64,000 bases of DNA from Solimonas sp. K1W22B-7 (GTDB taxonomy: Bacteria > Pseudomonadota > Gammaproteobacteria > Nevskiales > Nevskiaceae), in NCBI RefSeq assembly GCF_003428335.1, contig NZ_CP031704.1, positions 4,474,071 to 4,538,070 on the forward strand. Reading direction: 5' to 3'. The position numbers and the translations under genes are program-made. Below are positions 9,722-59,088 of this stretch, piece after piece (position 1 is the stretch's first letter; each line of letters opens with the position of its first letter). Under the pieces are notes generated by a model. The model did not search any database and was not told where the DNA came from. It saw nothing but the letters and a program-made list of their open reading frames with translations.

Positions 9722-10186
9722 ATGAAACGGCAGCTACTCCTCCTCTCCTCGCTGGCCATGCTGTACGTGTTTCCGGCGCAGGCCGAAACCGTCGGCTGCG
9801 TCACCACGTCCTGGAAGCTGATCGGCGCCAACCACAAGGTCTGCGTGGAAGCCTTCACCGATACCAAGCTGCCGGGCGTGACCTGCCACGTCAGCCAGGC
9901 GAAGACCGGCGGCGTCGCCGGCACGTTCGGTCTGGCCCAGGACCCGGCGCAGTTCTCGCTGTCCTGCGAACAGACCGGGCCCATCGTGATCCCGGCGAAG
10001 ATGCCCGAGCAGGAAACCGTGTTCACGGAAGACACCTCGATCCTGTTCAAGGAAACGCGCGTGACGCGGATCTGGGACCCGAAGCACAACACGCTGGTGT
10101 ACCTGGCGATCAGCCGCAAGCTGATCGATGGCGCGCCGAACAACAGTGTGGCGACGGTGGCGGTGCGGCCGTGGGGTGGAAGGTAG
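9722..10186 (+). CDS. creA: CreA family periplasmic protein
   Basis: Signal peptide; conserved TRVTRIWDPKHNTLVYLAISRKLIDG segment typical of CreA. Confidence 0.75.
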   Translation: MKRQLLLLSSLAMLYVFPAQAETVGCVTTSWKLIGANHKVCVEAFTDTKLPGVTCHVSQAKTGGVAGTFGLAQDPAQFSLSCEQTGPIVIPAKMPEQETVFTEDTSILFKETRVTRIWDPKHNTLVYLAISRKLIDGAPNNSVATVAVRPWGGR

Positions 10187-10219
10187 GTGATACCCACATC
10201 TCGCAATTCTCCCAAAATT

Positions 10220-10966
10220 CTAGGGCCTTACAACAGTGAGCCTTTTCCCAAACATTGGGAATCGTTCTGCCAGGAGACTGCAAAAATCTTCTGTGACGAA
10301 GACAGAGATGACATCATCGTCTTTAAAAACATAGTTCCCAAATAGCCGCCATTCCCGTTCCATATAAACATTCTCTATTGCTTCATCTTCCACTTCCAAG
10401 GGGAAAGGCTTCACGAAGCTTAGTAGGTCTTTCTGGAAAATAGAATTTGCAGCAAAGATGGTTTCCTCCGCGTCAGGAGGATTCGACCCGACACGTCTGC
10501 TCCTCTTCTCCGTCAATCTTCGATGCTTACCATCTTCTCGGTTTAGCGCTTTTGCCACCACGGTAAGATCCTGCAGCAGAGCCCTTCCATTGGTCCCCCA
10601 ATGGTCGCCATCGAACGTGGGCACGTACAAAACTGGGCGCGCACCCTTCTCTGCTAACGATTTTTTATTGAAGGCTAACCCAAAGTACCCATACTTCTTA
10701 CAATGAACGACAGATAGTTCTTCGAATGGGATATCAGCGTAGCAAGTTACGGATGGAACAATAAAATCTTCCCTGCTAAGGCAACCGCCGCCATGAACGC
10801 TAAATTGAACGCCGCCTTGGACTCCTGCAGTTTCTCGACTGTAAGCCACCGTCCTGCTGGCAAGTATCGCGCATAGGGTTTCGAAGTTTCCCTGATGATC
10901 TAGAGGATTGCGAAATCCCACAAAGTGGCTCAGGTTCCGGGAAATGTAGCTTTGCTTTTTTTTCAT
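10220..10966 (-). CDS. AbiGi/DUF2971-like abortive-infection family protein (low-GC islet)
   Basis: Strong GC drop, AT-rich codons. N-terminal L..IL.S..V.YS motif, a VTCYADIPFEEL segment and a YGYFGLAFNKK...RPVLYV block resemble AbiGi/DUF2971 defence proteins. Start uncertain (10966, 11047 or TTG at 11095). Confidence 0.4.
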   Translation of the reverse strand: MKKKQSYISRNLSHFVGFRNPLDHQGNFETLCAILASRTVAYSRETAGVQGGVQFSVHGGGCLSREDFIVPSVTCYADIPFEELSVVHCKKYGYFGLAFNKKSLAEKGARPVLYVPTFDGDHWGTNGRALLQDLTVVAKALNREDGKHRRLTEKRSRRVGSNPPDAEETIFAANSIFQKDLLSFVKPFPLEVEDEAIENVYMEREWRLFGNYVFKDDDVISVFVTEDFCSLLAERFPMFGKRLTVVRP

Positions 10967-11081
10967 ATCATTTCGCAATACAACTACTCTGGTAGCCCAG
11001 ATTAATCGTGTAATGCAAAAGGGTACACTGCCGTGAGCAAGCTTCATGTGACCAGCATACAGGGTGGCCTGAATGCAACTA

Positions 11082-11167
11082 CGTAGGGTGGGCAAACGTC
11101 TTCATGTTTGCCCACGCGGTTGACGTTCCGACGCGTGGGCAAACGAAAAGACATTTGCCCACCCTAC
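11082..11167. repeat. Nested GTAG-terminated palindrome (four alternating TGGGCAAAC units)
   Basis: GTAGGGTGGGCAAACG...TTTGCCCACCCTAC outer inverted repeat with an inner inverted repeat. REPIN-like or bidirectional terminator bordering the low-GC gene. Confidence 0.45.
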
Positions 11168-11265
11168 GACCAGACAAGGACTAGCCGATAGCGCACCGGG
11201 CAATGGCGCCACTATCACGGTGGCAAAGTTTTGGGGCGCGACCCTGTAAGGCCGCGCCCGTCCCG

Positions 11266-11562
11266 CTAGTTGGTCTTCGGCACGTAGTACTCGTCCGGGC
11301 TCAGGACGCCATCGCCGTTATGGTCGCGCGTGGCGAAGCGCTTGTAGATCTGCGAGTCCGGCTTGACCTCGGACTTCTGCACCAGGCCGTCGCCGTTGGT
11401 GTCGGTCCACATGGCCTTGGTGGGCTCGCCCACTGCCGGTGCGCCGACCGTGGACGATCCTGGTGCGTCGAGCGAAGAGCCGGGCAAGGTGCCGACGCCG
11501 GCGAAGGGGGCGGTGGAGAAGAGGAATGCTGCCGCAGCGGTGCTGAAGGCCAACCGGTTCAT
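11266..11562 (-). CDS. Secreted EF-hand calcium-binding protein
   Basis: Signal peptide then two DxNGDGxV(S/Q) EF-hand loops. The 297-aa ORF-track product is an upstream artefact. Confidence 0.7.
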   Translation of the reverse strand: MNRLAFSTAAAAFLFSTAPFAGVGTLPGSSLDAPGSSTVGAPAVGEPTKAMWTDTNGDGLVQKSEVKPDSQIYKRFATRDHNGDGVLSPDEYYVPKTN

Positions 11563-11692
11563 GCTTGAACTCCCTGTGTGTATTGATGAAAACCGCAGGG
11601 AGACCGGAAAACGCGCGGGGAACCGGTTCCCGCGCGGCGTTGCGCACGGCACGGGGCCGCAGGGTAAAAGCAGCAGATTCCATGCCACGTAA

Positions 11693-11750
11693 CGGTAGGA
11701 GCGGCCGGTGGCCGCGACCTCGCCGGGTCGCGGCCACCGGCCGCTCCTAC
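11693..11750. repeat. REPIN, family 1
   Basis: GGTAGGAGCGGCCGGTGGCCGCGACC...GGTCGCGGCCACCGGCCGCTCCTAC. Confidence 0.55.
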
Positions 11751-11758
11751 AACAGGAC

Positions 11759-13117
11759 TTAGGCTTCCAGTTCCGCCAGCCCCTGCTCCAGGTAGTCCAG
11801 CAGGCGCTGCATGTGCGGCAGCGTGCGGCGGCAGGCGATGAGGCCGAACTCCAGCTTGTCGGCGTAGCTGTTGAGCGTGATGTTGAGCGCCTGGCCGTCG
11901 ATGACGATGGACACGGGGTACATGCCCTCCAGCTCGGCGCCGTTCCAGTAGAGCTTGTTCTTGGGGCCCGGCACGTTGGAGATGGTGACGTTGAAGGCCT
12001 GCCAGCGCGGGGCGGCGCCGGTGGCGTAGTTGAGCGAGAACGGCGCCATGGTCGCGGCCATGTAGTTGACGATCTCGGCCTGCGACATGTTCTGGAAGCG
12101 GTCCTTGGAGGTCTGCACCGAGCGCTGGATGGCGTGCAGGCGCTCCACCGGGTCTTCAATGCTGGTGTAGAGGTTGGCCAGGATCATCGCCACCTGGTTG
12201 CCGGAGTCGCTGTCGTCGCGGCGCAGGGACATGGGCACCATCGAGGTCAGCGGCTTGTCGGGCAGCTCGCCCAGTTCCTTCAGGTAGCTGCGCAGCGCCG
12301 AGCCGCACATGGCCAGCACGACGTCGTTGAGCGTGGCGTCGTGCTTGCGGCCGGCGGCGCGGATGCGCTCCAGCGACCAGGACTGCGCGGCGAAGCGGCG
12401 CGAGCCGGTGATGCGCTGGTTGAGGATGGACTTGGGCGCCTGGAACACGGAGACGTAGTCCGGGTTGCTGCGCGCGGCGCGGATCGAGCGGTACAGCTCG
12501 CGCGTGACGTTGGGCAGGGTCTTGGCCTGCTGGCCGAGCATGCCGGCGGCTTCTCCGACCACGGAGATGAAGCTGCGCGGCCGGTCTTCGCCGGGCACCA
12601 GCTCGCGCTTGCGCGGCGGCATGGCCCAGACCGGGATGTTCTGCTCTTCCGGCGTTTCGCTGGTGGCGCGCATCATCATGCGCATGGCGGCGATGCCGTC
12701 GACCAGGGCGTGGTGGATCTTGGAGTAGATGGCGATGCGGCCGTCTTCCAGACCGTCGATCAGGTAGAACTCCCACAGCGGCTTGGCGCGGTCCAGGTGC
12801 GCGCTGTGCAGCTGCGACACCAGGGCCAGCAGCTCGCGGATGCGGCCGGGCTTGGGCAGGGCCAGGTGACGGAAGTGCGACTCGATGTCGAACTCCTCGT
12901 CTTCCACCCAGAACGGTGCGCCGAGCTTGCGTTCCAGGCGCAGGTTGAACGGCGCGCAGGCCTTGGTGTGGCTGCGCATGAAGTCGGCGACCTTCTGCGT
13001 GTAGTCCGGGCCGGCGTCCTTGGGCGGGCGCGCCAGCTGCAGGCCGCCGACGTGCATCGGCTGGTTGCGCCGTTCCAGCAGCAGGAACATCTGGTCCTGC
13101 GGGCTCAGAGGCTTCAT
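11759..13117 (-). CDS. Wax ester synthase / acyl-CoA:diacylglycerol acyltransferase (WS/DGAT)
   Basis: HHALVDG active-site motif and ~450-aa WS/DGAT architecture. ATG at 13117 (MKPLSPQDQMFLL). Confidence 0.85.
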   Translation of the reverse strand: MKPLSPQDQMFLLLERRNQPMHVGGLQLARPPKDAGPDYTQKVADFMRSHTKACAPFNLRLERKLGAPFWVEDEEFDIESHFRHLALPKPGRIRELLALVSQLHSAHLDRAKPLWEFYLIDGLEDGRIAIYSKIHHALVDGIAAMRMMMRATSETPEEQNIPVWAMPPRKRELVPGEDRPRSFISVVGEAAGMLGQQAKTLPNVTRELYRSIRAARSNPDYVSVFQAPKSILNQRITGSRRFAAQSWSLERIRAAGRKHDATLNDVVLAMCGSALRSYLKELGELPDKPLTSMVPMSLRRDDSDSGNQVAMILANLYTSIEDPVERLHAIQRSVQTSKDRFQNMSQAEIVNYMAATMAPFSLNYATGAAPRWQAFNVTISNVPGPKNKLYWNGAELEGMYPVSIVIDGQALNITLNSYADKLEFGLIACRRTLPHMQRLLDYLEQGLAELEA

Positions 13118-30985: not shown

Positions 30986-31058
30986 TGGAAGCTAGCTCAT
31001 TGGATAGAGCAGGTGGTTTTCAACCATCCGGTAACGGGTTCGACTCCCGTGCTTTCGC
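30986..31058 (+). tRNA. tRNA-Glu(UUC)-like element with aberrant acceptor stem (possible pseudogene or att remnant)
   Basis: Perfect D-arm (GCTC-ATTGGATA-GAGC), anticodon arm with loop TTTTCAA (U33, anticodon UUC, A37), T-arm ACGGG-TTCGACT-CCCGT. Acceptor stem needs U1•G72 and G3•U70. No proper CCA (GCTTTCG-C-ACCA). Confidence 0.35.
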
Positions 31059-32846: not shown

Positions 32847-34040
32847 ATGAGCATCAAGCAGGAAATCACCACCGGCAGCGTGCCGGTGAAGATCTGGACC
32901 GACGACGTCGACGAGGCCTCGCGCAAGCAGCTGGCGAACATTGCCGGCCTGCCGTTCGTGCACCACCACGTCGCCGCGATGCCGGACGTGCATCTGGGCA
33001 TCGGCGCGACCGTGGGCTCGGTGATCGCGACGCGCCAGGCGATCGTGCCTGCTGCGGTGGGCGTGGACATCGGCTGCGGCATGGCCGCGGCGCGTACCAC
33101 GCTGACTGCCGGGGACCTGGACGAGAAGCGTCTCAACAACGTCTTCCGCCAGATCAGCCGCGACGTGCCGGTGGGCCGCGACCAGCATCGTGGCGACCGT
33201 GCGCCGACCGAGGCGGCTGCCGCCTTCGACCCGGGCCTGAACGCGATCCTGGAGAAGCACCCGAAGCTGGAGTCGCGCAAGGACCCGAACGGCTGGATCT
33301 GTCAGCTGGGCAGCCTGGGTGGCGGCAACCACTTCATCGAACTGTGCCTGGATGAGGCCGGCCGCGTGTGGGTGATGCTGCACTCGGGTAGCCGCGGTAT
33401 CGGCAACCGCATCGGCACCTACTTCATCGAGCGCGCCCGCGAGAAGGCGCTGCGCATGGACCGCCAGCTGCCGGACATCGACCTGGCCTGGCTGGACGAG
33501 GGTTCGCCGGACTTCGACGACTATGTCGAGGCGGTGGGCTGGGCGCAGGACTACGCGCGCATGAATCGCGAGGTGATGCTGGGCCTGGTGCTGGCGGCGA
33601 TGCGCCGTCACCTGCGTCCGTTCGAGACCGTGGCGGAGGCGGTGAACTGCCACCACAACTACGTCTCGCGCGAGCATCACTACGAGGCCGACGTCTGGGT
33701 GACCCGCAAGGGCGCGATCCGCGCCGGCGAGGGCCAGCTGGGCATCATCCCGGGCAGCATGGGCGCCAAGAGCTTCATCGTGCGCGGCAAGGGCAACCCG
33801 GAAAGCTTCGAGTCCTGCTCGCACGGCGCCGGCCGCCGCATGAGCCGCACGCAGGCGCAGAAGAAGTACACCGCTACCGACCTGGTGCAGCAGACCGAGG
33901 GCGTGGTCTGCCGCAAGGACGCCGGCGTGGTCGACGAGATTCCGGCGGCGTACAAGGACATCGATGAAGTGATGGCCAACCAGACGGACCTGGTGGAGGT
34001 GGTGCACACGCTGAAGCAGGTGATGTGTGTGAAGGGGTGA
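32847..34040 (+). CDS. rtcB: RNA-splicing ligase RtcB (3'-phosphate/5'-OH RNA ligase)
   Basis: HHHVAAMPDVHLGIGATVGSV, GCGMA, NHF and CHHNY motifs of RtcB; ~397 aa. Confidence 0.85.
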   Translation: MSIKQEITTGSVPVKIWTDDVDEASRKQLANIAGLPFVHHHVAAMPDVHLGIGATVGSVIATRQAIVPAAVGVDIGCGMAAARTTLTAGDLDEKRLNNVFRQISRDVPVGRDQHRGDRAPTEAAAAFDPGLNAILEKHPKLESRKDPNGWICQLGSLGGGNHFIELCLDEAGRVWVMLHSGSRGIGNRIGTYFIERAREKALRMDRQLPDIDLAWLDEGSPDFDDYVEAVGWAQDYARMNREVMLGLVLAAMRRHLRPFETVAEAVNCHHNYVSREHHYEADVWVTRKGAIRAGEGQLGIIPGSMGAKSFIVRGKGNPESFESCSHGAGRRMSRTQAQKKYTATDLVQQTEGVVCRKDAGVVDEIPAAYKDIDEVMANQTDLVEVVHTLKQVMCVKG

Positions 34041-34184
34041 ATCGCCGCGCTTATGCGATGACTAAATGTCATCGCATGCGGCGATTCACGCCCGGCCATG
34101 GATGGCCGGGCCGGGGCTAGATCAGGAAGTGAAGTCCCGCCATGGATGGCGCCCCCGCTTTAGGCACAAGACAGGAGGAAGAAA

Positions 34185-35289
34185 GTTGAGTAAGAGCAGA
34201 AAGTTAAAGCTGCGAAAGCTTCGGCAGAAGAAACTTCGACAGCAAGATCGCCGGGCCAATGCATCATCTAGGACATCGAAAGGCGCTACCACAAGCACTA
34301 AGGTGTCCGTTGATCGCTTGGGGCCCTCTGGCGTGCCCGGTGTTCTATTGATTGTTCCTGAGTTTCCAGATCGGAAAATTTCTGACCAAGAAAAATTCAA
34401 GGATAAAAGCAAGCGAATGTTCAAGTTAAAGGCGCTGCTGGGGAAGCACTCCTCAAGAGAAGGAGGTATCTCCACCATCATGACTAGTGAAGATGGGGAT
34501 TCATTTATCGTTGCAGGCTATGAAGACACTGCGGGCATGCTTCATACGTCCGTAGGGAAGATGATTCTGAGACACAACGCAAAGAAGGAGCTTGCGCTGG
34601 TAGAGTTCGATTGCAATTCAACCTCCATCCATGAAGCGAAGCACCTGTTCTTAAAGGCGCTTACTCCCTTTCTTGATCATCTGAGCTTCTTGGCAAACAT
34701 CCCGCTACACATCGTGAGAGTGGGATGCCTAGACACAGTTCATCATATTGAATCCGTGGATTACGTTGGACCTCATGCCAATGTACAACTGAATCCACAC
34801 GCCTCCTCCATGGAGGAAGAGTTGATTCCTGTGTATGCGCTATACAGGGAAGCAAAAAACAATCCAAGCTCGCTGTACAAGTTTTTGTGCTACTACAAGA
34901 TTCTTGAAGGAATCTATAAGTCTTTACGACCAGCGCTCATGTCGCGTGCAAAGGATAAGGGTATTTCTATAGCGATGCACAAAGAGGTAGTGCCGAAATT
35001 GCATGACCCGCTTCCGGACCACGCTGAACTAGAGGAAAGGCAAATTAAGGAAGTTTTTAACGGCCGATTTCGTGAAGACTTTAGAAACCAGGCGGCCCAC
35101 TTCCTACTAGGCGAAGGCCTCCCGTTGAATGTCAGCGACTCGGAGATCTATTCCAAGTTCTCTAGGGAGTTGCCATTGATTGAAGTGTGCGTACGCATAG
35201 CGATGGAGACACATCGCGAGTATTTGCAAGACTATCAAAAGAAAGTTGCCAGCTTTCACGCGCAGACGGTCTCATCGCCTTCCGCCTAG
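34185..35289 (+). CDS. Low-GC hypothetical protein with HEPN-like Rx4H motif (Abi/defence-like)
   Basis: AGGAGG + 7 nt + TTG start. GC much lower than flanks. Lys-rich N-terminus, FRNQAAHF (R-x4-H) near the C-terminus. No further recognisable motifs. Confidence 0.4.
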
Positions 35290-35326
35290 TGAAAAAGGGG
35301 CAGTGCTTGCGCACCGCCCCTTTTGT

Positions 35327-35623
35327 TTACTCCGGGCTTCGCTTGAAGTTCTTCTTCGCTGCCTGCCTTAGACCGCCGAAATCCCCGCGGATCAACGCTT
35401 CCTTCTTCAGCCGGTTCCAGCGCTTGACCTGCATCTCCGAAGCCAAGGCTTCCTCGCGGCTCGAAAACTCCTGCGAGTACACCAGCAGCAGTGGCTTTCG
35501 CGTGGCGGTATAGCCTTCGAACGTACCGGCCTCATGCTGGGCAATGCGCTGATCGAGGTTGTCCGTATGCCCGGTGTAGTAGGAGCCGTCGGCGCAGCGC
35601 AGGATGTAGAGCCAGAACGGCAT
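35327..35623 (-). CDS. GIY-YIG nuclease family protein
   Basis: WLYILRCADGSYYTGHTDNLDQRIAQHE GIY-YIG motif plus conserved Glu/Asn. ATG at 35623. Confidence 0.75.
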   Translation of the reverse strand: MPFWLYILRCADGSYYTGHTDNLDQRIAQHEAGTFEGYTATRKPLLLVYSQEFSSREEALASEMQVKRWNRLKKEALIRGDFGGLRQAAKKNFKRSPE

Positions 35624-35654
35624 GGGTGACCTTGGTGAATGTGTGAGCCCCTCG

Positions 35655-35760
35655 ATACGCTGCGCTACTCGGGGTGAACGGGTCTTTAGAATCTTCCAGC
35701 GACCAACAGACCGTTCTCCCCGAGTGCCGCGTAGCGGTGTATCGAGGGGCTCACCATACC
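35655..35760. repeat. REPIN-like inverted pair, family 3
   Basis: GTGAGCCCCTCGATACGCTGCGCTACTCGGGGTGAACGGGTCT ... inverted copy ending ...CGAGGGGCTCAC. Confidence 0.5.
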
Positions 35761-35764
35761 TCAA

Positions 35765-36190
35765 CTAAACCCCCATCCCGCCCATCGGCGTCCTCATCAC
35801 CACCAACCTCGAATCCTCCAGCGCCGCCGAGCGGTGCACCGTCTCCGCGCGGTACTCCGGGTTGGAGATCATCTGCAGGAAGGCCTGCATCGACGGATAG
35901 CGCACCAGCAGCACCTCGTCCCAGCGCTCGTCCTCGGGGCCGATGAAGCGGCCGATGCCCTCGGCCAGGAACAGCGGCTCGCCGCCGACGTCGCGCACGC
36001 GCCTTTCCGCCAGCACCGAGTAGCGCCCGTAGGCCTCGCGCCCGGTGCAGGGCGCATGGCCCGAGCCTTCCGGGTAAGCCGCCTGGCCGCGAAAGCGCAG
36101 CAGGTTGAGCATGGTCACCGGCGTGTTCATGGGAATGCCGGTGGCGATGCGCTTGATGTCGGCACCGCTGGGTTCGATCGTGCGGCTCAT
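35765..36190 (-). CDS. DUF1330 domain protein
   Basis: 141 aa; dimeric alpha+beta barrel-like DUF1330 signature region. Confidence 0.65.
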   Translation of the reverse strand: MSRTIEPSGADIKRIATGIPMNTPVTMLNLLRFRGQAAYPEGSGHAPCTGREAYGRYSVLAERRVRDVGGEPLFLAEGIGRFIGPEDERWDEVLLVRYPSMQAFLQMISNPEYRAETVHRSAALEDSRLVVMRTPMGGMGV

Positions 36191-50335: not shown

Positions 50336-50531
50336 CGGCACAGTCTGGGTTTTGCGGGTGTCGCGAGGATGACGCCCTGGGACACTGTCCACCAAGGGGA
50401 AAGATTGCTCCACTCCCCGGCCCGCCGATGCCTGTCGTCGCTCGCCTGCGACCTTCCGTCCGCCGCAGGGAATCCTTGTCCACAGGCTAAATGTAGTATT
50501 TGTCCTACAATATTAATAAGGAAAGGCTTAC

Positions 50532-51512
50532 ATGACCGTCCAGGCCGGCAGGGCCCGCAGGATCAGCTGCATCGGCTTCGACTGGCGCGCCGAGGTCTCC
50601 CTGAAGGAGACGCTGGCGCTGCTGCGCGGCAAGACCCGCGAAGCCTGGCAGTACTCGGACGAGTTGACGGCGGAGGTGGTGGTGTACGAAACCCACAACG
50701 CCCTGGCCCAGGCCATGGTCCGGCGCTGCCAGGCCGAAGGCTCCGGCGGCCGCGTGTTCTTTCCCTCCAGCAGCGAAGACGACAGCGTGCTGACGCTGCG
50801 CTACCCCTTCGGCGCCAGCCGCCTGGTCGCCTGCCTGGACAGCGCCTCGCTGCAGTTGCAGGGCACTGCCGCCAACCAGGAGCGCAGCGACGAAGCCAGC
50901 CTGTGCCAGCGCATCGACGATGCCCTGCGCACGCCCGGCAGCCTGGCGGTGGCGATCCGCGCCGGCAGCCAGCAGGGCTGGCTCAAGCTGCCGGAGCGGC
51001 AGCTGTTCTGGTCGCAACCGCTGGGGATCGAGGAGATCGCACAGCTGCTGTCCGGCGACGTCGAGGTACAGGCGCTGGGCCCGGTGGACGCCGCCAGCCT
51101 GCGGCGCCTCGAAGCCGGCGCACGTCACCCGGCGCAGGCCGAACCGCTGCTCTGGGCAATCGGCATCGCGCGCTCCAAGGGCTCGCTGCTGCACCGTCTC
51201 GACATCGCCAGTCCCTGCCGCCTGCGCCGCTGGCCGGACTTCGGTGCGATCGGCCGCCGCAACCTGGATATCCGCTGCGCCTCGCTGCTGACGCAGCGCG
51301 AACTGGCGCCCACGCACCTGGCGATGATGGCGGGCATTCCGCTCGGCGCGATCGGCAACTTCCTCAACGCCTGTGCCCTGATCGACGTGCTCGAGGCCGG
51401 CAAGGCGACGGCCCTGCCGCAGGCCGCGCCGCGCGTGGCAGCCCTGCCTTCGGAATCCGGATTCGGCAGCATGCTGCGCCGCATCCGCATGGCCCTGACG
51501 ATCGCCGAATAA
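50532..51512 (+). CDS. Uncharacterised protein, first gene of conservon-like module (paralog of 58162..59088)
   Basis: 326 aa. About 35% identity to the second copy over the full length (shared G.DWRAE.SLK.TLALL.G.TRE.W ... RRPDFG..G....D.RC..LL.......LA..AGIP.....NFLNA.AL). Stop overlaps the GTPase start (TAATG). Confidence 0.6.
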   Translation: MTVQAGRARRISCIGFDWRAEVSLKETLALLRGKTREAWQYSDELTAEVVVYETHNALAQAMVRRCQAEGSGGRVFFPSSSEDDSVLTLRYPFGASRLVACLDSASLQLQGTAANQERSDEASLCQRIDDALRTPGSLAVAIRAGSQQGWLKLPERQLFWSQPLGIEEIAQLLSGDVEVQALGPVDAASLRRLEAGARHPAQAEPLLWAIGIARSKGSLLHRLDIASPCRLRRWPDFGAIGRRNLDIRCASLLTQRELAPTHLAMMAGIPLGAIGNFLNACALIDVLEAGKATALPQAAPRVAALPSESGFGSMLRRIRMALTIAE

Positions 51513-52066
51513 TGCCGCGGGAATACAAACTCCTGTTCGCCGGAGCGATGGGGGCCGGCAAGACCACCGCGATCGCCGCCATCAGCGACCACGCGCCGGT
51601 GCGCACCGAGGCGCTCAACAGCGATCGCAGCCAGCACGGCAAGGCGCTGACCACGGTGGGCTTCGACTACGGCGAGATCGCGCTCGACGGCGGCGACCGC
51701 CTGCGGCTCTACGGCATGCCGGGCCAGGACCGTTTCAGCTTCATGTGGAAGGTCGCCAGCGAAGGCGCCCTCGGCGTGGTGGTGCTGGCCGACAACAGCC
51801 GCCCCGATCCGCTGGCCGACCTGTCGCTCTACGTCGAGTCCTTTCGCGCGCTGGCGGATTGCGGCGCCATGGTGATCGGCATCGGCCGCCTCGGCGAAGG
51901 CAGCACCAGCGTCGAAACCTACGCCGCCTGGCTCGCCAGCCAGGGCCTGTCGCTGCCCGTGTTCACCATCGACGTACGCCGCCGCGACGATGTACTGCTG
52001 CTGCTCGACGCCCTGCTCTACCAGATCGAGGCCCACAAGATGCTTGCGAACGCCGGACATGCCTGA
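51512..52066 (+). CDS. CvnD/MglA-like Ras-superfamily small GTPase (conservon-type ATP/GTP-binding protein)
   Basis: GAMGAGKTT P-loop, TTVGFDYG switch I, LYGMPGQDRF switch II. Closely matches the actinobacterial CvnD pattern (GGFGVGKTT...LFGTPGQDRF). Confidence 0.75.
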   Translation: MPREYKLLFAGAMGAGKTTAIAAISDHAPVRTEALNSDRSQHGKALTTVGFDYGEIALDGGDRLRLYGMPGQDRFSFMWKVASEGALGVVVLADNSRPDPLADLSLYVESFRALADCGAMVIGIGRLGEGSTSVETYAAWLASQGLSLPVFTIDVRRRDDVLLLLDALLYQIEAHKMLANAGHA

Positions 52067-52472
52067 CGAATTCCCGATGGACCCCGCCACCGGCGGAAAC
52101 ACCGTGCCGGCGCACTACGCCACAGCGCTCGATGCCCTGCTCGCCACCGTGCCCGCGCTGACCGGCGCCGTGCTGTCGCGCAGCGACGGCTTCGAGGTGC
52201 TCGGCCGCACCCGCGCCGATGTCCCCGTATCGCGCCTGTCGGCGCTGTCCAGCTCGATGATGGCCCTGAGCCAGGCGGCGCTGCGCGAAGTCGGCATGCA
52301 CGGCGGCGGCGGCAGCGTCCTGGTGGAAGGCCAGGACGGAAAGCTGCTGCTGCTGGAAGTGCCGCTGCGCGGGCAGCCGATGGTGCTCGCCGCCATCGGC
52401 GGTGCCGACGTCGTCACCGGAACACTGCTGTGGGCCGCGCGCGATTGCGTGCGGCAACTGATCAATCCCTAG
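52059..52472 (+). CDS. Roadblock/LC7 domain protein (CvnB/MglB-like) 1
   Basis: ~137 aa. GAVLSRSDGFEV...LLLLEV pattern of the Roadblock fold. Overlaps the GTPase stop by 8 nt. Confidence 0.7.
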   Translation: MPDEFPMDPATGGNTVPAHYATALDALLATVPALTGAVLSRSDGFEVLGRTRADVPVSRLSALSSSMMALSQAALREVGMHGGGGSVLVEGQDGKLLLLEVPLRGQPMVLAAIGGADVVTGTLLWAARDCVRQLINP

Positions 52473-52494
52473 AACACAAACGGAGTACAACAAG

Positions 52495-52854
52495 ATGAGC
52501 AACGTTCAAGCGTCCCTCGAGAGCTTCCTGTCCCTGGACGGCGGCATGTGCAGCGCCCTGGTCGATGCCAACAGCGGCATGATGCTGGGCCAGGCCGGCA
52601 CCGGCGTGGACCTGGAACTGGCCGCCGCCGGCAACACCGAAGTGGTCCGCGCCAAGCTCAAGACCATGAACACCCTCAAGCTCAACGACAAGATCGAGGA
52701 CATCCTGATCACGCTGGGCAAGCAGTACCACATCATCCGCCCGATCGCGTCCAAGCCCGGCCTGTTCTTCTATGGCGTGCTCGACAAGACCAAGGGCAAC
52801 CTGGCGATGGCACGCCGCAAGGTGCAGGACATCGAAAGCGGCCTGGCGATGTAA
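52495..52854 (+). CDS. Roadblock/LC7 domain protein (CvnB/MglB-like) 2
   Basis: 119 aa. GMCSALVDANSGMMLG...HIIRP Roadblock pattern. ACGGAG RBS. Confidence 0.7.
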   Translation: MSNVQASLESFLSLDGGMCSALVDANSGMMLGQAGTGVDLELAAAGNTEVVRAKLKTMNTLKLNDKIEDILITLGKQYHIIRPIASKPGLFFYGVLDKTKGNLAMARRKVQDIESGLAM

Positions 52855-52865
52855 GCAGCCGCGCA

Positions 52866-52900
52866 AACAAGAAGGGGCCGCGATATGCGGCCCCTTTTTT
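52866..52900. terminator. Bidirectional rho-independent terminator
   Basis: AAGGGGCCGCGATATGCGGCCCCTTTTTTG between convergent operons. Confidence 0.7.
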
Positions 52901-52932
52901 GTATTCGCTCCTACACCCGAAGGGCATGGCTC

Positions 52933-56132
<3,200 letters not shown>

Positions 56133-58161: not shown

Positions 58162-59088
58162 TCAGAACAGCTCGCCGGACCGCACACCGCTCTCCCTCGC
58201 CGCCAGTTCTGCCGGCACGCCATCGAGCAGTTCGCACAGCGCCGCGGCATTGAGGAAGTTGTTCGCCACCGCCGGCGGAATGCCGGCGGTGCTGGCCAGT
58301 TGCCCCGGGGTCATCGGCGCCTGCAGCAGCAGCGCACTGCAGCGCAGGTCCGACTTGCGCCCACCCACGGTGCCGAAATCCGGCCGCCGCCGCAGGCCAT
58401 AGGCCCGCGCCTCGCTGAGCCGGCGCAGCAGTCTCCCGCCCGAGGTGGCGACGCCGATGGTCCACAGCGGCGCCTCCCAGGCATGTTGCTGCGGCGTGAT
58501 CGCCTGCAGCTTGCGCAGCGCCGCATAGTCATCGGCGCGCAGCAGCTGGATCTCCACGCCCGGCGCCAGCAGCCGCGCGATCTCGTCGCCATCCAGCGGC
58601 AGCGGCCAGCGCAGCGCGGCCTCCGCCGGCAGCAGCAGGCCGCGGCGCTCGCCGGTCAGCAAGGCAACCCCACGCACGCCGGGGCTGTGCAGCGCCTCGT
58701 CGATGCGCTGGCAGAGGCTGTCGCCCACCGGCTCGCGGCGCGGCGCGGGCAGGACCTCGGAGGCATGGTCCAGGCAGCGGATCAGGCGACTGGCACCGAA
58801 GGGATGGCGCAACCGCCGCTGCGCGTCGGCGGTCTCGCCGTCGCAGGGCACGAACAGCTGCCGCGGCGACGACGGCGACTCGCGCCGCTGCAGCGCCTGC
58901 GCCAGCGGATTGCCCGGCTCGTAGATCACCACGTCCGCCGCCAAGCCTTCGCCGAAGGCCCAGGGCTCGCGGGTCCTGCCGTCGAGCAGGGCCAGGGTCG
59001 CTTTCAGCGAGCGCTCGGCACGCCAGTCGACCCCCAGGCAGGCGAGGCGGCGGGGCTGGACCGTGTTCTTGGGGCTCAGGACGGGCAT
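58162..59088 (-). CDS. Uncharacterised protein, paralog of 50532..51512 (orphan copy)
   Basis: 308 aa, collinear similarity to the first conservon-module gene. No GTPase or Roadblock partners adjacent. Confidence 0.6.
   Translation of the reverse strand: MPVLSPKNTVQPRRLACLGVDWRAERSLKATLALLDGRTREPWAFGEGLAADVVIYEPGNPLAQALQRRESPSSPRQLFVPCDGETADAQRRLRHPFGASRLIRCLDHASEVLPAPRREPVGDSLCQRIDEALHSPGVRGVALLTGERRGLLLPAEAALRWPLPLDGDEIARLLAPGVEIQLLRADDYAALRKLQAITPQQHAWEAPLWTIGVATSGGRLLRRLSEARAYGLRRRPDFGTVGGRKSDLRCSALLLQAPMTPGQLASTAGIPPAVANNFLNAAALCELLDGVPAELAARESGVRSGELF

What the first reader, a model, noticed from the sequence alone, without database searches (positions are those of the whole stretch)
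50532..52854. Kinase-less, rearranged conservon-like GTPase module outside Actinobacteria
Four co-directional genes with overlapping or tightly spaced junctions (TAATG overlap, then an 8-nt overlap, then a 22-nt gap):
- An uncharacterised 326-aa protein.
- A small GTPase whose P-loop, switch I and switch II (GAMGAGKTT ... TTVGFDYG ... LYGMPGQDRF) match the Streptomyces conservon GTPase CvnD/MglA family almost residue for residue.
- Two Roadblock/LC7 proteins (CvnB/MglB-like; MglB-type proteins act as GAPs).

Canonical conservons are cvnA(sensor kinase)-cvnB-cvnC(DUF742)-cvnD. Here there is no kinase and no obvious DUF742. The unknown first gene occupies that position, and its C-terminus (..AGIP.....NFLNA.AL..LL) could be an HTH-like CvnC analogue. 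The gene order is X-D-B-B. That makes the 326-aa protein a candidate new GEF/scaffold partner for an MglA/CvnD-type switch in a gammaproteobacterium.
Basis: partly seen in the sequence, partly recalled or inferred. Interest (0 to 1): 0.72.

Follow-up and report, generated by a model that had tools for sequence, protein, structure and literature searches.

The report
Known "Group 3" MglA GTPase operon
This four-gene operon in Solimonas is real, but it belongs to the "Group 3 MglA" small-GTPase modules of beta/gamma-proteobacteria already catalogued in 2014, so it is a new member of a known, biochemically untested kind.

Summary
Four co-directional, tightly coupled genes lie at 50532-52854 in Solimonas sp. 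K1W22B-7 (Gammaproteobacteria, Nevskiales): X (326 aa), a small GTPase (184 aa), a Roadblock protein (137 aa) and a 119-aa protein, followed by a terminator hairpin.

The module is not new. Wuichet & Søgaard-Andersen 2014 (PMC4316618) defined "Group 3 MglA" systems of beta/gamma-proteobacteria as DUF>MglA>MglB(>MglB). They predicted the DUF to be receiver-like at the N-terminus and winged-helix at the C-terminus. The window matches this:
- GTPase motifs fit: TT in G2, GMPGQ in G3, no NKxD in G4, DVR in G5.
- The GTPase groups with the Neisseria Group 3 protein, not with CvnD.
- An X-family profile hits the gene upstream of the Neisseria GTPase.

All 13 loci with an X ortholog that I tested keep the four-gene order. 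The single unlinked homolog is the ortholog of a second, orphan X paralog in this window (58162-59088, minus strand).

New details: the receiver is degenerate (a pseudo-receiver). RWPDFG and a tail-helix arginine are near-invariant. No sequence test identifies the 119-aa protein as Roadblock. Similarity of X to DUF742 is limited to the HTH.

Function is inferred: a GTPase switch with a Roadblock GAP and X as regulator or effector.

The parts
50414..50531 (+). Intergenic leader upstream of X. It has an AT-rich stretch (about 50490-50520) and an AAGGAAAGG ribosome-binding region. This is the presumed promoter region of the operon.
   Evidence: Sequence read. The sigma-70 consensus scan found no site, so the promoter is inferred only.
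50532..51512 (+). X (X1), 326 aa: the 'DUF' component of a Group 3 MglA system. It is Solimonas sp. K1W22B-7 D0B54_20450, annotated as a hypothetical protein.
   Evidence: ORF. It is 100% identical to P0001. No Pfam or NCBIfam family matches. The family has 1809 cluster representatives at E<=1e-3. AF2 model: pLDDT 87.5, pTM 0.81.
50556..50855 (+). X residues 9-108: receiver-like (CheY-fold) domain with a degenerate phosphorylation site, i.e. a pseudo-receiver.
50901..51170 (+). X residues 124-213: confidently folded middle alpha/beta domain of unassigned fold.
51216..51398 (+). X residues 229-289: winged helix-turn-helix preceded by the near-invariant RWPDFG motif (residues 233-238, 51228-51245). 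The third helix has no basic residues.
51459..51503 (+). X residues 310-324: C-terminal amphipathic helix (MLRRIRMAL) after a disordered linker. It carries a near-invariant arginine, R319.
   Evidence: Helix 310-324 follows a linker with pLDDT below 50 at 293-309. R319 is present in 70 of 71 members; L322 is L or F in 71 of 71.
51512..52066 (+). Group 3 MglA-type small GTPase, 184 aa. Motifs: G1 GAMGAGKTT, G2 TT, G3 GMPGQ, G4 IGIGR (no NKxD), G5 DVR.
   Evidence: PF03029, 42 bits. Weak Rab/Sec4/MglA matches in the PDB. Motif table over 121 homologs. The best match in the plasmid collection is the Neisseria Group 3 gene at 46% identity. NJ tree.
52059..52472 (+). Roadblock/LC7 (MglB/CvnB-type) protein, 137 aa, with the conserved Asp-Gly pair (SRSDGFEV). 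Expected GAP subunit.
   Evidence: Robl_LC7 at 22.3 bits. The family profile hits 7f8m (E 2e-10), 9jue, CvnB5 3leq (E 4.7e-6), Rv3364c and LAMTOR3. D43 and G44 are invariant.
52495..52854 (+). 119-aa protein ('Robl2'): the most conserved product of the cassette. Its family is unassigned. It is possibly a divergent Roadblock-like partner of the 137-aa protein.
   Evidence: It is 73-88% identical across loci in which X is only 38-79% identical. 61 columns are invariant. There is no Pfam hit at E<=10, no PDB profile hit and no hhalign match to Roadblock.
52872..52902 (.). GC-rich hairpin followed by a T-run: a terminator-like site that closes the operon.
   Evidence: 10-bp stem with 8 GC pairs. 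The sequence AAGGGGCCGCGATATGCGGCCCCTTTTTT was read.
58162..59088 (-). X2: an orphan paralog of X, 308 aa. It has RRRPDFG in place of RWPDFG, lacks the C-terminal helix, and has no GTPase or Roadblock gene beside it.
   Evidence: The X-family profile hits it at E 4.5e-82. It is 48% identical to X1 and 62% to P0039. Its synteny matches L002: a gly-zipper gene upstream and a convergent SBF transporter.

Best explanation
The locus is a chromosomal Group 3 MglA module in the sense of Wuichet & Søgaard-Andersen 2014. It is a self-contained small-GTPase switch, transcribed as one operon with overlapping or closely spaced genes.

- The 184-aa GTPase is the switch. It has an intact P-loop, Thr-Thr in switch I and a catalytic Gln in switch II. 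Its guanine-specificity motif is non-canonical: GxGR replaces [NT]KxD, and there is a DVR G5 motif.
- The 137-aa Roadblock protein most likely acts as its GAP. It probably pairs with the highly conserved 119-aa protein.
- X is a pseudo-receiver / alpha-beta / winged-helix protein with a flexible tail helix. It most likely binds the GTPase as its nucleotide-state regulator (GEF or co-GAP/scaffold) or as its effector. It probably does not act as a phosphorylated response regulator.

Shown here: the identity of the parts, their conservation as a unit, and the placement in Group 3. Inferred: the GAP and GEF roles, the heterodimer, and the cellular output. The output could be type IV pilus or polarity control, or gene regulation.
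For: Gene structure and coupling.

Group 3 definition and gene order (DUF>MglA>MglB>MglB) in Neisseria, Acidithiobacillus, Leptothrix, Methylomonas and Teredinibacter: PMC4316618 text and Table S2.

GTPase:
- G2 TT, G3 G[MTL]PGQ, G4 [VI]G[VI]GR and G5 DVR across 121 homologs.
- Best match in the plasmid collection is the Neisseria gonorrhoeae locus, 46% identity over 82% of the query.
- The NJ tree groups the window clade with Neisseria, apart from CvnD and the Deinococcus/Thermus proteins.

X:
- The X-family profile hits three collinear ORF fragments directly upstream of the Neisseria GTPase, each at E about 1e-6.

Conservation of the unit:
- The four-gene order is kept in 13 of 13 loci with an X1 ortholog, and in L016 and L019. 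Flanks differ outside close Solimonas species.

Roadblock 1: its profile hits CvnB5 and other Roadblock structures. D43 and G44 are invariant.

Roles in related systems: MglB is a GAP, MfpD is a GAP and MfpC is a GEF (titles and abstracts listed).
Against: - No biochemical data exist for any Group 3 system in the searched literature. Locus tags of listed members return no papers.
- The 119-aa protein cannot be assigned to Roadblock by sequence, so the heterodimer idea is inference.
- G4 lacks both the Lys and a conserved Asp, so guanine specificity is itself unproven.
- No test here shows that X touches the GTPase.
- The wHTH could still bind DNA.
- Nothing in the 64-kb window points to an output pathway.
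Confidence: 0.72

Rival explanations
1. Divergent conservon. The C-terminal module of X (RWPDFG, winged helix, linker, tail helix) is a distant homolog of CvnC/MfpC (DUF742), the GEF of actinobacterial G-protein systems. Here it is fused to a pseudo-receiver that replaces the CvnA kinase as the input.
For: - Group 2 (CvnD) and Group 3 GTPases share the unusual G4 and G5 features (PMC4316618).
- DUF742 proteins and the X C-terminus have the same layout: an N-terminal extended motif, an HTH whose third helix is hydrophobic or acidic, a short linker, and a final helix (LLEAVLDGLRRQL against MLRRIRMAL). This was read from the sequences.
- hhalign aligns the two HTH regions at E 1.5e-4 to 2.6e-4.
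- MfpC is reported to be a GEF (PMC11343762).
Against: - hhalign probability is only 42-51%, the match covers about 50 HTH columns, and identity is 7-10%.
- Pfam DUF742 matches 1 of 71 X-family members at E 0.08. Generic winged-helix families match more members.
- The X profile finds nothing in four Streptomyces conservon loci.
- My DUF742 alignment had little diversity.
Confidence: 0.2
2. Transcriptional output. X is a DNA-binding, response-regulator-like transcription factor, and the GTPase and its partners gate its DNA binding. This is the suggestion made in the 2014 paper.
For: Receiver-like plus wHTH is the classic layout of DNA-binding response regulators (PMC4316618).
Against: - The third helix of the wHTH (AIGNFLNACALID; family consensus V..F.NAcALcGLL) has no basic residues, and the wHTH region of X1 has a net negative charge. 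This was read from the sequences.
- The phospho-acceptor Asp and the conserved Lys are missing in most members.
- No inverted-repeat operator was looked for or seen.
Confidence: 0.2
3. Polarity or type IV pilus regulator. As with MglA/MglB in Myxococcus, the module controls pilus-dependent motility or cell polarity. This concerns the output and is compatible with the best explanation.
For: - In Snodgrassella, which has a Group 3 mgl operon, mutations in an orphan mglB improved gut colonisation. The authors suggest altered T4P-dependent motility (PMC11112851).
- Several genera in the Group 3 list (Neisseria, Dichelobacter, Acinetobacter, Xanthomonas, Stenotrophomonas) are, from my own knowledge, known for type IV pilus-dependent twitching motility.
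Against: - The Snodgrassella evidence is indirect.
- Group 3 GTPases lack the intrinsic Arg finger of Group 1 MglA.
- No pilus or motility genes flank the operon here or in the related loci.
Confidence: 0.3
4. A mobile anti-phage or conflict system built around a small GTPase.
For: - The flanking genes differ between genera.
- A related GTPase in Ralstonia lies next to an IS element and an ATPase-phosphatase fusion.
Against: - There is no PADLOC hit except a marginal P-loop match at E 0.0065.
- The cassette is syntenic among Solimonas species, and no mobility genes are nearby.
- GC content equals that of the surroundings.
Confidence: 0.03

Closest known systems
Group 3 MglA systems of beta/gamma-proteobacteria (Wuichet & Søgaard-Andersen 2014, PMC4316618), e.g. 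Neisseria meningitidis NMB0476 locus, Acidithiobacillus AFE_2575, Teredinibacter TERTU_4498
   Same: - Same gene order, DUF>MglA>MglB>MglB.
- Same GTPase motif pattern: TT, GxPGQ, non-NKxD G4, D-x-R G5.
- Same predicted DUF architecture: receiver-like N-terminus and wHTH C-terminus.
- Same host classes.
- The X profile detects the Neisseria DUF, and the GTPase is closest to the Neisseria protein.
   Different: - Nevskiales were not in the 2014 genome set.
- Here G3 is GMPGQ rather than GTPGQ.
- G4 has lost the T-K-x-D that Neisseria still has (GITKMD against GIGRLG).
- The canonical Roadblock gene comes first and the unassignable 119-aa gene second. In Neisseria the weak Roadblock match comes first and the canonical one second.
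- A second, orphan X paralog lies 5.3 kb downstream.
Actinobacterial conservon / actinobacterial G-protein system (CvnA-B-C-D; Mfp operon)
   Same: - A small GTPase of the same broad MglA family with a deviant G4 and a DAR-like G5.
- A CvnB-type Roadblock partner. The Robl1 profile hits CvnB5 3leq and Rv3364c.
- A small wHTH-containing partner encoded next to the GTPase.
   Different: - No CvnA histidine kinase and no Pfam DUF742.
- Gene order is X-D-B-B rather than A-B-C-D.
- GTPase identity to CvnD proteins is only 31-35%, and it falls in a separate clade.
- G4 is GxGR rather than NxFD.
- The host is a gammaproteobacterium.
Myxococcus/Thermus MglA-MglB with the RomR-RomX GEF (Group 1 MglA)
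   Same: - A Ras-like GTPase with a Roadblock GAP.
- A receiver-domain protein (RomR) takes part in the GEF complex (abstract of PMC9481161), which parallels the receiver-like domain of X.
   Different: - Group 1 MglA has an intrinsic Arg finger beside the G2 Thr, a TVPGQ G3 and a canonical NKxD. The window protein has TT, GMPGQ and no NKxD.
- RomR and RomX are not encoded next to mglA, and nothing here shows them to be homologous to X.
DUF4388 (PATAN)-GTPase-Roadblock operons of Thermus and Deinococcus
   Same: - Same order: partner, GTPase, Roadblock.
- The partner also ends in an HTH, a linker and a final helix (GLLQRVLRAL). This was read from the sequences.
   Different: - The N-terminal domain there is DUF4388, not receiver-like.
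- The X family has no DUF4388 hit.
- hhalign probability is only 8-18%.
Eukaryotic Rag GTPase regulators built from Roadblock, longin and winged-helix modules (Ragulator/LAMTOR; GATOR1 NPRL2/NPRL3; yeast Npr2)
   Same: - The Robl1 profile reaches LAMTOR3.
   Different: - Sequence identity is 1-10%.
- Foldseek does not find these matches significant (E above 1).
- The aligned segment is unknown, so this is a lead and not a relationship.

Membership tests
Group 3 MglA system (Wuichet & Søgaard-Andersen 2014) | G2 has Thr-Thr, with no intrinsic Arg finger next to the conserved Thr. | tested here: met
   The window has KALTTVGFDYG, and TT is kept in all displayed homologs. Criterion taken.
Group 3 MglA system (Wuichet & Søgaard-Andersen 2014) | G3 motif is GTPGQ, shared by Groups 2-5. 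| tested here: met
   The window and its closest relatives have GMPGQ or GLPGQ. More distant members of the same clade have GTPGQ. P, G and Q are kept; only the T varies.
Group 3 MglA system (Wuichet & Søgaard-Andersen 2014) | G4 deviates from [NT]KxD, and G5 is a D-A-R type motif. | tested here: met
   G4 is [VI]G[VI]GR in 117-120 of 121 homologs. G5 has D154 and R156 in 121 of 121 (DVR).
Group 3 MglA system (Wuichet & Søgaard-Andersen 2014) | The neighbourhood is a conserved unknown protein, then MglA, then one or two MglB genes. | tested here: met
   The order X-GTPase-Robl1-119aa is found here and in 13 of 13 ortholog loci. Table S2 lists DUF>MglA>MglB>MglB. Caveat: the second 'MglB' is unverified here.
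Group 3 MglA system (Wuichet & Søgaard-Andersen 2014) | The unknown protein has a receiver-like N-terminus and a wHTH C-terminus, and matches no Pfam model. | tested here: met
Group 3 MglA system (Wuichet & Søgaard-Andersen 2014) | Homology to components of a listed Group 3 genus (Neisseria), and closer to these than to Group 2. | tested here: met
   The GTPase is 44-46% identical to the Neisseria gonorrhoeae gene, against 31-35% to CvnD. The X profile hits the upstream Neisseria ORF fragments at E about 1e-6.
Group 3 MglA system (Wuichet & Søgaard-Andersen 2014) | The host is a beta- or gammaproteobacterium. | tested here: met
   Solimonas sp. K1W22B-7, in Nevskiales, Gammaproteobacteria.
Actinobacterial conservon / AGPS | A CvnA-type sensor histidine kinase is encoded in the operon. 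| tested here: not met
   No kinase ORF lies in or beside the operon. The neighbours are Lhr, a Zn-PLC/Big_5 protein, DUF748, ThiC and an SBF transporter.
Actinobacterial conservon / AGPS | A CvnC protein (Pfam DUF742) is present. | tested here: inconclusive
   X has no DUF742 hit, and only 1 of 71 family members hits it, at E 0.08. hhalign probability is 42-51% over the HTH only.
Actinobacterial conservon / AGPS | A CvnD (Group 2) GTPase with an NxFD G4, in the actinobacterial clade. | tested here: not met
   G4 is GIGR here, against VAVNEFD or NxF in the Streptomyces sequences. The window protein falls in a separate clade in the NJ tree.
Actinobacterial conservon / AGPS | A CvnB-type Roadblock protein is present. 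| tested here: met
   The Robl1 family profile hits CvnB5 3leq at E 4.7e-6 and Rv3364c at E 8.8e-6.
Roadblock/LC7 (for the 119-aa protein) | Detectable sequence or profile similarity to Robl_LC7 or to solved Roadblock proteins. | tested here: not met
   No Pfam hit at E<=10. The PDB profile search gives only spurious hits at E>=1. hhalign against Robl1 and a mixed Roadblock alignment gives probability below 1%.
Phosphorylatable response-regulator receiver (for the X N-terminus) | Conserved acidic pocket, phospho-acceptor Asp at the end of beta3, Thr/Ser at beta4, and Lys at beta5. | tested here: not met
   X1 has E53 and Y91. Across the family the acceptor position is D in 29 of 71, the Lys position is K in 10 of 71, and the pocket position 17 is D or E in 17 of 71. 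The fold is REC-like.
Group 1 MglA (Myxococcus/Thermus type) | An intrinsic Arg finger adjacent to the G2 Thr, a TVPGQ G3 and a canonical NKxD. | tested here: not met
   The window has TT, GMPGQ and GIGR. Criteria taken.
PATAN / DUF4388 partner proteins | A Pfam PF14332 match. | tested here: not met
   X and 71 family members have no DUF4388 hit. The Thermus partner does hit it, at E 1.2e-8.

The most novel reading that the evidence does not exclude
X is the long-missing nucleotide-state regulator of Group 3 GTPases. Its C-terminal module would be a non-DNA-binding winged helix that docks on the GTPase, evolutionarily related to the CvnC/MfpC (DUF742) GEF and to the C-terminal half of the Thermus and Deinococcus DUF4388 partners. 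That module is made of the near-invariant RWPDFG motif, a winged helix with an uncharged third helix, a flexible linker, and a tail helix with the near-invariant R319. The tail arginine would act in trans on the active site. The pseudo-receiver would replace the conservon kinase as the input. The ultra-conserved 119-aa protein would be a previously unrecognised partner, either a cryptic Roadblock or a new fold. This reading would unite Groups 2, 3 and 5 under one three-part GTPase / Roadblock / winged-helix regulator design.
Probability: 0.2. Interest if true: 0.55.

Novelty: new member of a known kind. Interest (0 to 1): 0.3.

Why it matters
Group 3 MglA systems occur in important bacteria, including Neisseria, Stenotrophomonas, Xanthomonas, Acinetobacter and Acidithiobacillus. 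No biochemical study of them turned up in the searched literature. The only functional evidence found is indirect, from Snodgrassella gut colonisation.

The Solimonas locus adds no new kind of system, but this analysis sharpens what to test:
- The first gene is a pseudo-receiver, so kinase input is unlikely.
- Its winged helix does not look DNA-binding.
- It carries near-invariant RWPDFG and tail-arginine motifs that are obvious mutagenesis targets.
- The GTPase has lost the guanine-specificity Asp and Lys.
- The fourth gene is the most conserved part, yet it belongs to no recognised family.

The X family has about 1800 clusters at 50% identity and still has no Pfam or NCBIfam model.

Tried and rejected
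Rejected. Only marginal P-loop hits appear, against a PF03029 hit above its cutoff and Ras-family PDB matches.
2. **X never linked to a GTPase (the other refutation test).** Rejected. Linkage holds in 13 of 13 ortholog loci and in two distant lineages. The apparent exception, L002/L003, is the ortholog of the orphan paralog X2.
3. **DUF742 homology of the X C-terminus.** I built DUF742 alignments from four Streptomyces plasmid conservons and from a database search. The search returned mostly near-identical sequences: 5 clusters at 80% identity. hhalign stayed at 42-51% probability. Inconclusive.
4. **PATAN/DUF4388 relationship.** Not supported.
5. **Roadblock identity of the 119-aa protein.** Pfam at E<=10, a PDB profile search, hhalign against Robl1 and a mixed Roadblock set, and hmmsearch against the Neisseria MglB genes were all negative.
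7. **AFDB Foldseek search.** The library was unavailable.
8. **Organism names for distant GTPase homologs through cluster look-up.** None were returned.
9. **Defence-system models.** Nothing meaningful.
10. **Literature search by Group 3 locus tags.** No papers found.
11. **Sigma-70 promoter scan upstream of X.** No site found.

Full report
**Observation**

The + strand of the window carries four tightly packed ORFs:
- X: 50532-51512, 326 aa.
- A GTPase: 51512-52066, 184 aa. Its ATG shares the A of X's TAA.
- A 137-aa protein: 52059-52472, an 8-nt overlap with the GTPase gene.
- A 119-aa protein: 52495-52854, after a 22-nt spacer containing GGAG.

A GC-rich hairpin followed by a T-run (52872-52902) closes the unit. 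GC content matches the surroundings. X is 100% identical to hypothetical protein D0B54_20450 of Solimonas sp. K1W22B-7, a member of Nevskiales in the Gammaproteobacteria.

**What the parts are**

*GTPase.* It passes Pfam PF03029 ATP_bind_1 at 42 bits against a cutoff of 27. Beyond that it has only marginal P-loop hits. Its PDB matches are weak ones to Rab, Sec4, Arf and MglA. It is therefore a Ras-like small GTPase, not an AAA or ParA ATPase.

*137-aa protein.* It narrowly misses the Robl_LC7 cutoff as a single sequence (22.3 against 23 bits). A profile of its orthologs hits solved Roadblock proteins, including Streptomyces CvnB5 (3leq, E 4.7e-6), M. tuberculosis Rv3364c and LAMTOR3. The Asp-Gly pair D43-G44 is invariant.

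*119-aa protein.* It is the most conserved product of the cassette: 73-88% identity across loci in which X is only 38-79% identical. No sequence method assigns it to Roadblock or to any other family. Its pattern of hydrophobic and helical stretches is compatible with a Roadblock topology. That is my reading of the sequence, not a test result.

*X.* It matches no Pfam or NCBIfam model.

**Anatomy of X**

An AF2 model built on 30 orthologs is confident (pLDDT 87.5, pTM 0.81). It shows five regions:
- An N-terminal alpha/beta domain, residues 9-108.
- A middle alpha/beta domain, residues 124-213.
- A winged helix-turn-helix, residues 229-289.
- A disordered linker, residues 293-309.
- A terminal helix, residues 310-324.

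Across 71 diverse family members:
- The receiver's phospho-acceptor position is Asp in only 29. X1 has Glu there.
- The conserved Lys position is Lys in only 10. X1 has Tyr there.
- The acidic-pocket position is mostly Pro or Ser.

The domain is a pseudo-receiver. The near-invariant residues lie elsewhere: W234-P235 within RWPDFG, W208, and R319 and L322 in the tail helix. The third helix of the wHTH (AIGNFLNACALID) has no basic residue. This argues against sequence-specific DNA binding, although that is an inference.

**Conservation and distribution**

- A word-indexed search found 40 X homologs. All named ones are from Solimonas or Sinimarinibacterium.
- A full profile search found 1809 cluster representatives at E<=1e-3. 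Most are 310-350 aa long and match over their full length.
- A genome scan plus one look-up gave 13 loci with X orthologs: Solimonas spp., Sinimarinibacterium, Stenotrophobium and several MAGs. All 13 keep X, GTPase, Roadblock and the 119-aa gene in that order.
- Two more distant metagenomic lineages, reached through GTPase homologs, have the same four genes. Their X is 43% and 29% identical to X1.
- Flanking genes are syntenic only among close Solimonas species. The cassette is therefore conserved as a unit.
- The single X homolog not followed by a GTPase (P0039; L002/L003) is the ortholog of a second X-family gene in this window, X2 (58162-59088, minus strand). X2 is 48% identical to X1 and 62% to P0039, and shares the gly-zipper and SBF-transporter synteny.
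- X2 has RRRPDFG in place of RWPDFG, lacks the tail helix, and has no GTPase or Roadblock gene beside it.

**Comparison with what is known**

Wuichet & Søgaard-Andersen (Genome Biol Evol 2014, PMC4316618) divided prokaryotic MglA-family GTPases into five groups. Group 2 is the actinobacterial conservon GTPase CvnD/MfpB. Group 3 is "almost exclusively" from beta/gamma-proteobacteria such as Neisseria, Stenotrophomonas and Xanthomonas.

[quoted passage not shown] Phyre2 predicted the unknown protein to be receiver-like at the N-terminus and wHTH at the C-terminus, with no Pfam match. Table S2 lists the order DUF>MglA>MglB>MglB for N. meningitidis NMB0476, Acidithiobacillus, Leptothrix, Methylomonas, Methylomicrobium and Teredinibacter.

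The paper's motif criteria are TT in G2, GTPGQ in G3, a G4 that departs from [NT]KxD, and a DAR-type G5. The window GTPase has TT, GMPGQ, GIGR and DVR. Among 121 homologs the G4 is [VI]G[VI]GR and the G5 D-V-R is invariant.

Three results tie the window directly to a listed Group 3 genus:
- The best tblastn match of the window GTPase in the plasmid collection is a Neisseria gonorrhoeae record of chromosome size, at 46% identity and 82% coverage.
- The X-family profile hits three collinear ORF fragments immediately upstream of that gene, each at E about 1e-6. The gonococcal copies of the DUF and the GTPase are frameshifted.
- An NJ tree groups the window clade with Neisseria and apart from Streptomyces and Rhodococcus CvnD and from the Deinococcus and Thermus proteins.

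A 2024 paper on Snodgrassella also uses the "group 3 mgl operon" label. It reports that mutations in an orphan mglB improve colonisation of a non-native bee host, possibly through type IV pilus-dependent motility (PMC11112851). Searches for locus tags of Group 3 members returned no papers.

**Relation to the conservon**

- Groups 2 and 3 share the odd G4 and G5.
- Robl1 is CvnB-like.
- A small wHTH partner is encoded next to the GTPase in both systems.

Membership fails, however. There is no CvnA kinase and no Pfam DUF742. The gene order differs, the G4 differs (GxGR against NxFD), the clade is separate and the phylum differs.

I tested whether the X C-terminus is a DUF742 homolog. hhalign of the X C-terminal profile against DUF742 alignments gives E of about 2e-4. 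The probability is only 42-51%, and the match covers about 50 HTH columns at 7-10% identity. Pfam DUF742 matches 1 of 71 members at E 0.08, and generic winged-helix families match more often.

By eye, three protein types share a layout: a short conserved N-terminal motif, an HTH, a linker, and a final helix of the LLxxI/VxxxL type. They are X residues 224-326, DUF742 proteins, and the C-terminal halves of the Thermus DUF4388 and Deinococcus partners encoded upstream of related GTPases. This is a hypothesis, not a finding.

**Most likely mechanism**

*Shown:*
- A conserved, translationally coupled four-gene unit.
- An MglA-family GTPase with an intact P-loop, switch I Thr and switch II Gln.
- A Roadblock partner.
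- A pseudo-receiver/wHTH partner.

*Inferred from characterised relatives* (MglB and MfpD act as GAPs, MfpC and RomR-RomX act as GEFs):
- The Roadblock protein accelerates hydrolysis, probably as a heterodimer with the 119-aa protein.
- X binds the GTPase through its winged helix and tail and sets or reads its nucleotide state.
- Phosphorylation is unlikely to be the input.

The output is unknown. Pilus or polarity control and transcriptional control are both open. Loss of both the Lys and the Asp of NKxD means that even guanine specificity should be checked experimentally.

**Verdict**

The claim of novelty is not, because this is a new member, in Nevskiales, of a system type described computationally in 2014 and still uncharacterised biochemically.

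The added value of this analysis is:
- The pseudo-receiver diagnosis.
- The folded middle domain.
- The near-invariant RWPDFG and tail-arginine motifs.
- The deviant G4.
- The unassignable but ultra-conserved fourth protein.
- The orphan X2 paralog.

Noticed in passing
window 58162-59088 (-): A second, orphan X-family paralog (X2, 308 aa, 48% identical to X1). It lies 5.3 kb downstream of the operon on the opposite strand. It has RRRPDFG in place of the near-invariant RWPDFG and lacks the C-terminal helix. It is flanked by a gly-zipper lipoprotein gene and a convergent SBF transporter gene. Its metagenomic ortholog P0039 keeps the Trp and the tail helix.
   Followed up: yes
window 55992-56083 (-): A full-length TPP riboswitch match (RF00059, 40.7 bits, E 1.7e-6, below the gathering score of 54.3) lies upstream of thiC. 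It falls inside the mechanically listed 669-aa ThiC ORF. The real thiC start is therefore probably downstream, near 55949 (MSAIAEDIH...).
   Followed up: partly
L021 1888-3533 (Neisseria gonorrhoeae NZ_CP119140.1): In this gonococcal record the Group 3 DUF gene and the GTPase gene are each split by frameshifts: the DUF into three ORF fragments and the GTPase into two. The module looks pseudogenised in this strain. The 2.17-Mb record is filed as a 'plasmid' in PLSDB but is of chromosome size.
   Followed up: partly
L022 2617-6328 (Ralstonia solanacearum megaplasmid AP024102.1): A related GTPase (about 40% identical) sits in a different cassette next to IS elements. The order is a 124-aa hypothetical protein, the GTPase, a 436-aa ABC/AAA ATPase fused to a DSP-type protein phosphatase, small proteins and a Roadblock protein. 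This may be a distinct GTPase-Roadblock system.
   Followed up: no
L027 2357-3880 and L026 2267-4508: Thermus oshimai and Deinococcus gobiensis plasmids carry partner-GTPase-Roadblock operons. The upstream partner (DUF4388 in Thermus) ends in an HTH, a linker and a terminal helix that resemble the C-terminus of X. hhalign similarity is not significant.
   Followed up: partly
window 52495-52854 and its orthologs (A4): The 119-aa protein evolves much more slowly than its operon partners: 67-88% identity where X is 29-79% identical. It matches no known family. The reason for this constraint is unexplained.
   Followed up: partly
window 10001-12000 and 34001-36000: There are two dips in GC content, 0.57 and 0.54 against about 0.68-0.70 elsewhere. 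A tRNA gene lies at 30986-31058. These regions might be acquired DNA.
   Followed up: no
L016 7411-9918 (-): In one metagenomic lineage the four-gene cassette is followed by a convergent 835-aa Ser/Thr protein kinase with TPR repeats. This was seen in one lineage only.
   Followed up: no
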